Virus record (IMG/VR): IMGVR_UViG_3300032334_001433
Span: 1-64,000 of that record
DNA length: 64,000 nt
Source of the DNA: a virus
Lineage: Duplodnaviria > Caudoviricetes
Reading direction: 5' to 3' (one strand)
The notes under the pieces are model-generated. The model was not told the origin of the DNA. It saw only the letters and a list, made by a program, of their open reading frames with translations, and ran no database searches. This document shows positions 42,249 to 46,658 of the stretch, piece after piece. Position 1 is the first letter of the stretch. Each line of letters starts with the position of its first letter. The position numbers were made by a program, and so were the translations under genes.

Positions 42249-42764
42249 TCATGTAAATATCTTTGGTTCTTTACAACCAATTACTTTATCTAAAATATCA
42301 ATAGTGTCCATGATATAACCTTTGTGCATGATGGCAATACCGTTGCCCTTCTCATGCCAATCGACGATGTTTGAATACTTGTCGTCAATTAGGATATCTC
42401 CAGGGCGGCACCATTTCCATTTGTCTGTACTAAAAGGTCCAAAGTTTACTACAAATCCTGGAAAATATTTAGCAACCCAATCTTTTTTATCTTCCATGGC
42501 ATAAGGTACAGTATCTTTTCTTGGGATTGCTGTTAAGAACTCTACATTATACTTCGGAGTGATACCTTTACAGTATCCAACCAAAGTAGTAGCACCTTCC
42601 ATTAAAGGAAGATTGTAGTATAGTCTATACTCGGATGCTATTATTTTCCATTCTTCGGGTGAGATACTTCGGTCTGTCCAAAGTACTGTCCTACCCAGAA
42701 TTTTACTAACGTGTTCACTGAAGCCTGCTACGACTTCATCTAAGTCAATATAAATTGTGTTCAT
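42249..42764 (-). CDS. 5'(3')-deoxyribonucleotidase (HAD, NT5C-like)
   Basis: IYIDLDEVV, FLTA, K..WV, ILIDD, W...G.AI. Confidence 0.85.
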   Translation of the reverse strand: MNTIYIDLDEVVAGFSEHVSKILGRTVLWTDRSISPEEWKIIASEYRLYYNLPLMEGATTLVGYCKGITPKYNVEFLTAIPRKDTVPYAMEDKKDWVAKYFPGFVVNFGPFSTDKWKWCRPGDILIDDKYSNIVDWHEKGNGIAIMHKGYIMDTIDILDKVIGCKEPKIFT

Positions 42765-43037: not shown

Positions 43038-43193
43038 TTAATTCAATGGATCATTTGAATGATAATACATAAACAATTTTAGATAGTAATCAAATTGCGC
43101 AGGATAATGTACGGGAGAAGGTATCTTATCGCCAAACACTTCCTTCATCTTTTTAGCAATAAGTTGCAATTGTTCCTCAGTTACATTATCCAT
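43038..43193 (-). CDS. 51-aa hypothetical protein (not in ORF track)
   Basis: MDNVTEEQL...FGDKIPSPVHYPAQFDYYLKLF fills operon gap. Confidence 0.6.
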   Translation of the reverse strand: MDNVTEEQLQLIAKKMKEVFGDKIPSPVHYPAQFDYYLKLFMYYHSNDPLN

Positions 43194-43407
43194 GTATTCT
43201 CATTATCCTATTATAATTTTTTCTACTCTCTTCTAGATTAAAAGAAGATTCTACATTGGTTATTTCTTTTAATACGGGGTGCAGTAATTTGGCATTCAAT
43301 CTTTTAGACATTGTTTCAATAACAACATTCGCATCTTTACCTGCTCTAATTTCTTTTAGAGCTTTGTCTAATTCTTTAGATTGTACTTGCTCTATCCAGC
43401 CACTCAT
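43186..43407 (-). CDS. stand-alone glutamyl-tRNA reductase (HemA) dimerisation-domain-like protein
   Basis: EQV...KAL....G.DA......(K/R)L..(K/R)L(L/I)H...K matches HemA C-terminus by eye. Confidence 0.6.
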   Translation of the reverse strand: MSGWIEQVQSKELDKALKEIRAGKDANVVIETMSKRLNAKLLHPVLKEITNVESSFNLEESRKNYNRIMRIHG

Positions 43408-43607
43408 TTAAAGTAACGGTTAATAGTCAGTAGCTTTGTCTCGCATTGTGCCATTGCTTCTAATTCTTTATAGAATGCGCCCATAATATCCGCAGAAGCA
43501 TTGCCTAAAGGATGGCTGATTACAATCTCAGCATTTAGCCGATGACTTTCCAATTCAGCTTCAAGCCTACGTTTTGTTGTAGCAACAATATCATTTCTAA
43601 AATCCAT
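43404..43607 (-). CDS. hypothetical protein
   Basis: Operon packing, ATGA overlap. Confidence 0.6.
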   Translation of the reverse strand: MDFRNDIVATTKRRLEAELESHRLNAEIVISHPLGNASADIMGAFYKELEAMAQCETKLLTINRYFK

Positions 43608-46264: not shown

Positions 46265-46293
46265 ATTGTAGCACACTTTACTCTGCTTGTCAA
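46265..46293 (-). promoter_or_regulatory. sigma70 early promoter for minus-strand operon
   Basis: TTGACA-17-TACAAT with TG extension. Confidence 0.8.
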
Positions 46294-46629: not shown

Positions 46630-46658
46630 ATTATAGCACCTTTTGTCCATTGTGTCAA
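46630..46658 (-). promoter_or_regulatory. sigma70 early promoter (leaderless)
   Basis: TTGACA-17-TATAAT, ATG exactly 7 nt downstream. Confidence 0.85.

What the first reader, a model, noticed from the sequence alone, without database searches (positions are those of the whole stretch)
43186..43407. Stand-alone HemA dimerisation-domain mimic in the early operon
Seen: IEQVQSKELDKALKEIRAGKDANVVIETMSKRLNAKLLHPVLKEI. Known: glutamyl-tRNA reductase dimerises through a C-terminal helical domain (E. coli, from memory, [45 protein letters not shown]) and competes with translation for Glu-tRNA(Glu). Inference: the 73-aa phage protein could poison host HemA dimers, cutting tetrapyrrole synthesis and diverting Glu-tRNA to phage translation.
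Basis: partly seen in the sequence, partly recalled or inferred. Interest (0 to 1): 0.7.

Follow-up and report, generated by a model that had tools for sequence, protein, structure and literature searches.

The report
Phage mini-copy of HemA pairing domain
A lake phage keeps an early gene that encodes only the pairing domain of the bacterial enzyme that starts heme synthesis; it probably latches onto the host enzyme to retune that step, but whether it slows or sustains it is untested.

Summary
Window 43186-43407 (minus strand) encodes a 73-aa protein that passes Pfam GlutR_dimer (31.5 bits, cut-off 22.9). The complete 202.7-kb T4-like phage has no other piece of HemA. The protein belongs to a broad stand-alone family (well over 100 clusters at 50% identity). 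The family profile finds one locus, the HemA C-terminus, in 261 of 300 Gammaproteobacteria, and only GluTR (1GPJ) in the PDB. It is under purifying selection and sits behind consensus sigma-70 promoters; isolated copies in jumbo phages have their own leaderless promoter. This genome also carries heme oxygenase, a bilin reductase and tRNA-Glu. In several jumbo phages the gene lies just upstream of HSP20-ClpS-heme oxygenase-bilin reductase. It was not found in 41 phage records with ALA synthase (mostly fragments). A predicted heterodimer with HemA gave weak support only (0.59, control 0.00). Best reading: an early phage microprotein that binds host HemA (about 0.7). A brake on ALA synthesis (0.42) is somewhat likelier than stabilisation (0.25). 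Diverting Glu-tRNA to translation is not shown. I found no paper on it; this scan has noted the family in at least five other genomes.

The parts
43186..43407 (-). 73-aa stand-alone glutamyl-tRNA reductase (HemA) dimerisation-domain protein (P0001)
   Evidence: 20 close homologues of 71-77 aa at 76-99% identity; dN/dS about 0.2-0.4
43252..43398 (-). Core that aligns to HemA (residues 4-52): end of the spinal helix, Gly turn, and the helix bearing S-x-R-L-x-x-K-L-L-H
   Evidence: Pfam stretch; hhalign; shared conserved E12, A16, G23, S34, K40, H43
43204..43236 (-). Last helix (residues 58-68) with the phage-specific, nearly invariant Tyr65; takes the place of the third helix of the domain
   Evidence: AlphaFold2 model; Y65 in 99% of the family; profile aligns to 1GPJ 338-394
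46630..46658 (-). Consensus sigma-70 promoter (12/12) heading the leftward gene run
   Evidence: motif match only
46265..46293 (-). Second near-consensus sigma-70 promoter (11/12) directly ahead of the leftward operon 46240 to 42249
   Evidence: motif match only
43404..43607 (-). Upstream 67-aa gene (phrog_1811, unknown function); its stop overlaps the start of the mini gene by 4 nt, and no Shine-Dalgarno motif is seen, so translation is probably coupled
   Evidence: same order in L008 and L009
43038..43193 (-). Downstream 51-aa gene overlapping the stop of the mini gene by 8 nt; unknown function
   Evidence: conserved in L008 and L009

Best explanation
An early phage microprotein derived from the C-terminal dimerisation domain of proteobacterial HemA. 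Made from a host-type sigma-70 promoter early in infection, it pairs with host HemA subunits through the retained three-helix interface in place of a second HemA. The result is a one-armed enzyme that cannot form the V-shaped dimer that cradles HemL, so ALA output falls. The likeliest gain is a brake on the pathway while phage heme oxygenase and bilin reductase remove heme and so lift the host's heme feedback on HemA, which would otherwise let phototoxic porphyrins build up; spared Glu-tRNA would be a side gain. Shown: homology, stand-alone state, selection, promoter motifs, company of heme genes. Inferred: expression, binding (about 0.7 in either direction), inhibition and benefit.
For: Host-invariant core residues are kept across 89 divergent phage members (E12 97%, A16 92%, G23 97%, K40 98%, H43 85%; entropy rho 0.48, hydrophobicity rho 0.70), while host-conserved R25, R32 and N62 are relaxed. 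Three-helix model of a long member. Heterodimer with a Dechloromonas HemA C-terminus: score 0.59, best control 0.00, runs share at least 71% of contacts, partner pLDDT at least 69. That mark was reached by 58 of 80 solved and 2 of 110 mismatched pairs, but at 0.60 or under by only 7 solved pairs and both mismatches, so it is weak, and it may come from memory of the GluTR homodimer. Host looks betaproteobacterial, a group that uses HemA (RpoZ best hit Ralstonia). All five isolated copies examined have a consensus promoter ending 5-6 nt before the ATG. The dimer is built from three helices per monomer and its V shape receives HemL (PMC6399207); plant FLU inhibits GluTR through this same domain (PMC4726326); loss of heme feedback gives phototoxic protoporphyrin in E. 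coli (PMC4263509).
Against: The phage encodes heme-consuming enzymes, and phages with the same HSP20-ClpS-HemO-bilin reductase cassette carry an ALA synthase that adds flux (PMC11480375), which fits sustaining the pathway at least as well. It has its own tRNA-Glu. Identity to any sampled HemA is only 25-45%, and the phage members form their own branch, so they may prefer to pair with themselves. The true host HemA was not tested.
Confidence: 0.42

Rival explanations
1. It binds HemA (or titrates a negative regulator that docks on this domain) and so stabilises or de-represses the enzyme after host gene expression is shut off, keeping ALA flowing to heme and bilins. It would be the counterpart of viral ALA synthase for hosts that use the C5 pathway.
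For: Lies within 4.5 kb upstream of HSP20-ClpS-HemO-bilin reductase in 8 loci from 6 protein clusters. Both complete genomes with the gene have heme oxygenase and no ALA synthase. None of 41 ALA-synthase records has it. DnaK of one phage of each kind matches Burkholderiaceae best, so host class does not plainly explain the split. Heme-bound HemA is a Lon and ClpAP substrate (PMC6399207).
Against: No known way for a lone pairing domain to activate the enzyme; subunit exchange removes one catalytic arm. The records are mostly fragments and related to each other. The split is also expected if ALA-synthase phages infect Alphaproteobacteria, which lack HemA. The gene is often the last of an early operon, so adjacency may be inherited layout; it is 25 kb from heme oxygenase here and 57 kb in G001.
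Confidence: 0.25
2. It homodimerises and does not touch HemA: a self-contained six-helix bundle co-opted to bind another partner, heme or tRNA, perhaps through its phage-specific residues and tail.
For: Family-specific W4, P44, Y65 and a C-terminal A/P/S-D-H/Q motif in 66 of 91 long members, not seen in the HemA C-termini aligned. One old phage branch apart from proteobacterial HemA (98/89 support, 50 columns).
Against: The tail is absent from this 73-aa clade, so it is not essential. Polar host-invariant residues are kept, and the link to heme genes recurs across two kinds of phage.
Confidence: 0.25
3. A remnant of a captured hemA with no present function.
For: No catalytic or NADPH domain anywhere in the genome.
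Against: dN/dS about 0.2-0.4; well over 100 clusters with intact frames of like length; dedicated promoters; kept in at least three different gene contexts.
Confidence: 0.04

Closest known systems
C-terminal dimerisation domain of glutamyl-tRNA reductase (HemA/GtrR; Pfam PF00745; Methanopyrus kandleri 1GPJ)
   Same: Homologous over the three-helix region; same conserved core; passes the Pfam cut-off; 1GPJ is the only PDB hit of the family profile (E 0.0037).
   Different: No catalytic or NADPH-binding domain; most of the spinal helix is missing; Pro shifted by one (H-P for H-x-P); diverged third helix with invariant Tyr; many members add an acidic tail with D-H.
Viral ALA synthase with hemO and pcyA/pcyX (Wegner et al., PMC11480375; Chen et al., 10.1101/2020.02.13.942896)
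   Same: Large freshwater phages that act on the ALA step and carry heme oxygenase and a bilin reductase.
   Different: Those are full enzymes that bypass HemA. This is a non-catalytic fragment that would act on the host enzyme. The passages read do not mention it, and the two were not found together.
Plant FLU, the negative regulator of GluTR (PMC4726326)
   Same: Would act on the dimerisation domain of the same enzyme at the same rate-limiting step.
   Different: FLU is an unrelated TPR protein that docks on the intact dimer; this protein is a copy of the domain itself.
MicroProteins (dominant-negative lone dimerisation domains such as Id and LITTLE ZIPPER) and cyanophage CP12 (from my own knowledge)
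   Same: A small non-catalytic protein that retunes a host or parent protein by binding it.
   Different: Known microProteins act on eukaryotic transcription factors, and CP12 is a whole host regulator; a phage fragment of a metabolic enzyme's own interface is not one I know to be described.

Membership tests
Pfam GlutR_dimer (PF00745) | Score above the curated cut-off | tested here: met
   31.5 bits against 22.9
Pfam GlutR_dimer (PF00745) | Reciprocal, specific match to HemA C-termini | tested here: met
   Family profile matches in 261 of 300 Gammaproteobacteria, once per genome in all but two, in frames of about 420 aa; hhalign 99.2%
Pfam GlutR_dimer (PF00745) | Three-helix fold like domain III of 1GPJ | tested here: inconclusive
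   Models are all-helical with the expected breaks, but monomer fold searches gave no clear match
Pfam GlutR_dimer (PF00745) | Forms a six-helix dimer | tested here: inconclusive
   Heterodimer 0.59 against control 0.00, weak, stand-in host, like complex already solved; homodimer not tested
Glutamyl-tRNA reductase enzyme (TIGR01035) | Catalytic domain with active-site Cys and NADPH-binding domain | tested here: not met
   Only model positions 347-407 are matched in the whole complete genome; the JGI label 'glutamyl-tRNA reductase' on homologues is an over-annotation
Dominant-negative microProtein | Lone interaction domain homologous to a larger protein, encoded as its own gene | tested here: met
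Dominant-negative microProtein | Binds and inhibits the parent protein in the cell | not testable with these tools
   needs pull-down and ALA assay
Phage early host-takeover gene | Host sigma-70 promoter and early transcription | tested here: inconclusive

The most novel reading that the evidence does not exclude
Large freshwater phages control the first step of tetrapyrrole synthesis in two alternative ways: by bringing an ALA synthase, or by a microprotein cut from HemA's own pairing domain that exchanges into the host enzyme. Soil Betaproteobacteria appear to have made a like microprotein independently, so this would also reveal an undescribed protein regulator of bacterial HemA.
Probability: 0.55. 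Interest if true: 0.75.

Novelty: new variant of a known kind. Interest (0 to 1): 0.6.

Why it matters
[quoted passage not shown] A natural 73-aa binder would be a ready probe of what dimerisation does for HemA and for channelling to HemL. It also bears on an open question in phage biology, why non-photosynthetic lake phages carry heme oxygenase and bilin reductase: the sign of this protein's effect on ALA tells whether they feed or drain the pathway, and one expression experiment can read it. Pipelines that label these genes 'glutamyl-tRNA reductase' miscount them as enzymes.

Tried and rejected
Fold searches with monomer models of P0001 and of a long member gave only generic helical matches in PDB (Foldseek, VIA-align) and nothing in the Atlas; uninformative for short helical chains. 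Single-sequence search of PDB found nothing; only the profile did. No match in cultured phages of INPHARED for P0001 or P0168, and no PHROG. A split or full hemA, hemL and alaS were sought in this genome and not found; the HemA catalytic domain was not found in five related records. Two primary papers on GluTR structure were not held, so the effect of removing the domain is from memory only. Five paper searches found no description of the phage protein. The constrained tree test did not finish. Weak Pfam hits to Rep3_C and others are below their cut-offs and were rejected. Pattern searches with the wide alignments could not run, and P0190 found nothing in IMG/VR, which limits the number of complete genomes with the gene to two.

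Full report
Setting. The window is the first 64 kb of a 202,665-bp virus record with direct terminal repeats, 100% complete. Gene content is T4-like; the major capsid protein is 67% identical to Methylophilales phage Melnitz and 66% to Pelagibacter phage Mosig, so no close cultured relative exists. The genome has 26 tRNAs, among them tRNA-Glu(UUC) at 165587-165662, and a tmRNA. Its RNA polymerase omega subunit matches Ralstonia best, at 50%, in a small and biased collection. A betaproteobacterial host is likely but not established.

Observation. The ORF 43186-43407 on the minus strand gives the 73-aa protein quoted. It passes Pfam GlutR_dimer at 31.5 bits against 22.9 and touches the hemA model only at its last 60 positions. 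It is the only hemA match in the genome; hemL and ALA synthase were not found. Twenty near relatives of 71-77 aa share 76-99% identity, keep the same neighbours, and show dN/dS of about 0.2-0.4, a rough figure for so short a gene.

Family. A profile search of 1.84 billion representatives returned 142 clusters, nearly all 53-117 aa. Most are 85-100 aa proteins with W, E, A, G, K and Y nearly invariant and a D-H tail motif (66 of 91); the ones whose contigs I saw lie on large-phage DNA. P0001 belongs to a shorter clade without the tail. Its sole PDB hit is GluTR 1GPJ, residues 338-394. Against 32 proteobacterial HemA C-termini it aligns without gaps over 55 columns (99.2%). Column by column, the host-invariant E, A, G, K and H and the hydrophobic pattern are kept (rho 0.70 in register, at most 0.30 shifted), host-conserved R25, R32 and N62 are relaxed, and W4, P44 and Y65 are new. 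The ESM Atlas gives the same family, with one viral and two bacterial clusters on top. In a tree of 50 columns the 42 phage rows fall on one side of a 98/89 branch together with one long-branch HemA, apart from proteobacterial HemA; few columns and base-composition bias limit this.

Expression. The gene lies in a leftward run of overlapping small genes, 46240 to 42249, headed by promoters at 46658 (12/12) and 46293 (11/12). Such promoters cluster in the small-gene regions and are nearly absent from the virion genes. In jumbo-phage loci L018, L019, L020, L267 and L269 the homologue is not at the end of a small-gene operon and has its own 11-12/12 promoter ending 5-6 nt before the ATG, a leaderless unit; only 2 of 235 ORFs in this genome have that arrangement. 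This points to deliberate early expression, but it is motif evidence; RNA data could not be fetched.

Company. This genome encodes heme oxygenase (68516-69040) and a ferredoxin-dependent bilin reductase (69040-69714), 25 kb away. In 8 loci from 6 protein clusters the mini gene lies within 4.5 kb upstream of HSP20-ClpS-heme oxygenase-bilin reductase, in some with PfkB and HSP70 between. The complete 383-kb phage G001 has both, 57 kb apart. It is not a fixed part of the cassette: 34 of 35 records picked for heme oxygenase, mostly fragments, showed none, and ten of those carry ALA synthase. A further 31 ALA-synthase records also showed none. The 41 records sum to about nine genome equivalents, with only one complete, and are related to each other; positive controls rang. 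No record with the mini gene has ALA synthase. DnaK from one phage of each kind matches Cupriavidus or Ralstonia best, so host class is not an obvious cause, though DnaK may be an old capture. Wegner et al. (PMC11480375) propose that viral ALA synthase both sustains heme and frees tRNA-Glu, so the split fits either sign for the mini gene.

Binding. AlphaFold2 gives all-helical models (P0001: pLDDT 82, helices 2-21, 26-36, 39-52, 58-68; a long member: three helices and a loose tail); fold searches were uninformative. Cofolding the family with the HemA C-terminus of Dechloromonas H13 as a stand-in scored 0.59 against a best control of 0.00; runs agreed in at least 71% of contacts, partner pLDDT at least 69. 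That mark was reached by 58 of 80 solved and 2 of 110 mismatched pairs, but at 0.60 or under by only 7 solved pairs and both mismatches. Since the GluTR homodimer is solved, the pass shows likeness more than binding.

Mechanism. HemA dimerises through three helices from each monomer, and its V shape receives HemL; heme-bound HemA is degraded by Lon and ClpAP (PMC6399207). FLU inhibits plant GluTR through the same domain (PMC4726326). A lone copy that keeps the core is most simply a subunit decoy; I put binding to HemA at about 0.7. A heterodimer would lack one arm and the HemL cradle, so inhibition is the default (0.42), and it would make sense as a cap on porphyrin build-up once phage heme oxygenase removes the feedback signal; such build-up is phototoxic in E. 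coli (PMC4263509). Stabilising or de-repressing HemA, as the counterpart of viral ALA synthase, remains live (0.25), as does a HemA-independent role of a homodimer (0.25).

Cellular parallel. Stand-alone 53-77 aa copies also occur in GC-rich bacterial DNA. Five assemblies, four labelled Betaproteobacteria or uncultured soil-type bacteria and one Enterobacteriaceae (probably mislabelled), have a short copy besides a full-length hemA. These group with betaproteobacterial HemA, not with the phage branch, which suggests a separate origin of the same device.

Verdict. A real, selected, widespread and, in the papers I could search, undescribed phage gene. It is a member of the GlutR_dimer domain family, is not a reductase, and probably works as a microprotein on host HemA; the sign of the effect is open. 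The scan has noted the family in at least five other genomes with the same reading; I reached the heme-cassette link and the exclusion with ALA synthase before reading those notes. Novelty: new variant of a known kind. Interest 0.6.

Noticed in passing
L021:1921-2100, L025:3872-4144, L052, L059, L068:3908-4108, L015:8001-8198: Stand-alone HemA pairing-domain genes of about 55-80 aa in bacterial assemblies that also hold a full hemA; a possible native regulator, apparently of separate origin from the phage family.
   Followed up: partly
G000:C1:68516-69714 (beyond the window): Heme oxygenase and ferredoxin-dependent bilin reductase, coupled, in a phage with no ALA synthase.
   Followed up: partly
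G000:C1:170914-171129, 170234-170683, 166859-167128: Phage-encoded RNA polymerase omega subunit, rubrerythrin and GroES inside or beside the tRNA cluster.
   Followed up: partly
   Followed up: no
L013, L016, L148, L261, L268 and many loci from L134 to L168: A conserved jumbo-phage cassette HSP70-HSP20-ClpS-heme oxygenase-bilin reductase-CsgF-CsgG; ClpS is the adaptor of ClpAP, a protease reported to degrade HemA.
   Followed up: partly
C-termini of the long family members (A2, A6): An A/P/S-D-H-V/I-x-D tail in about two thirds of members, absent from the HemA C-termini aligned and from P0001; predicted without fixed structure. The His could bind heme or a metal (guess).
   Followed up: partly
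window 42249-42764 (-): Last gene of the same operon is a 5'-3' deoxyribonucleotidase (phrog_2643).
   Followed up: no
window 166-20603 (+) and G000:C1:198824-202665: About twenty paralogous glycine-rich genes in tandem, many starting M-F-T-x-Q-N and sharing a Y-L-V-V-A-G-G-G motif; probably a receptor-binding or fibre array.
   Followed up: no
G000:C1:115420-122248: A cluster that by inspection looks like queuosine or 7-deazaguanine genes (QueE-, FolE- and QueD-like); not run against profiles.
   Followed up: no
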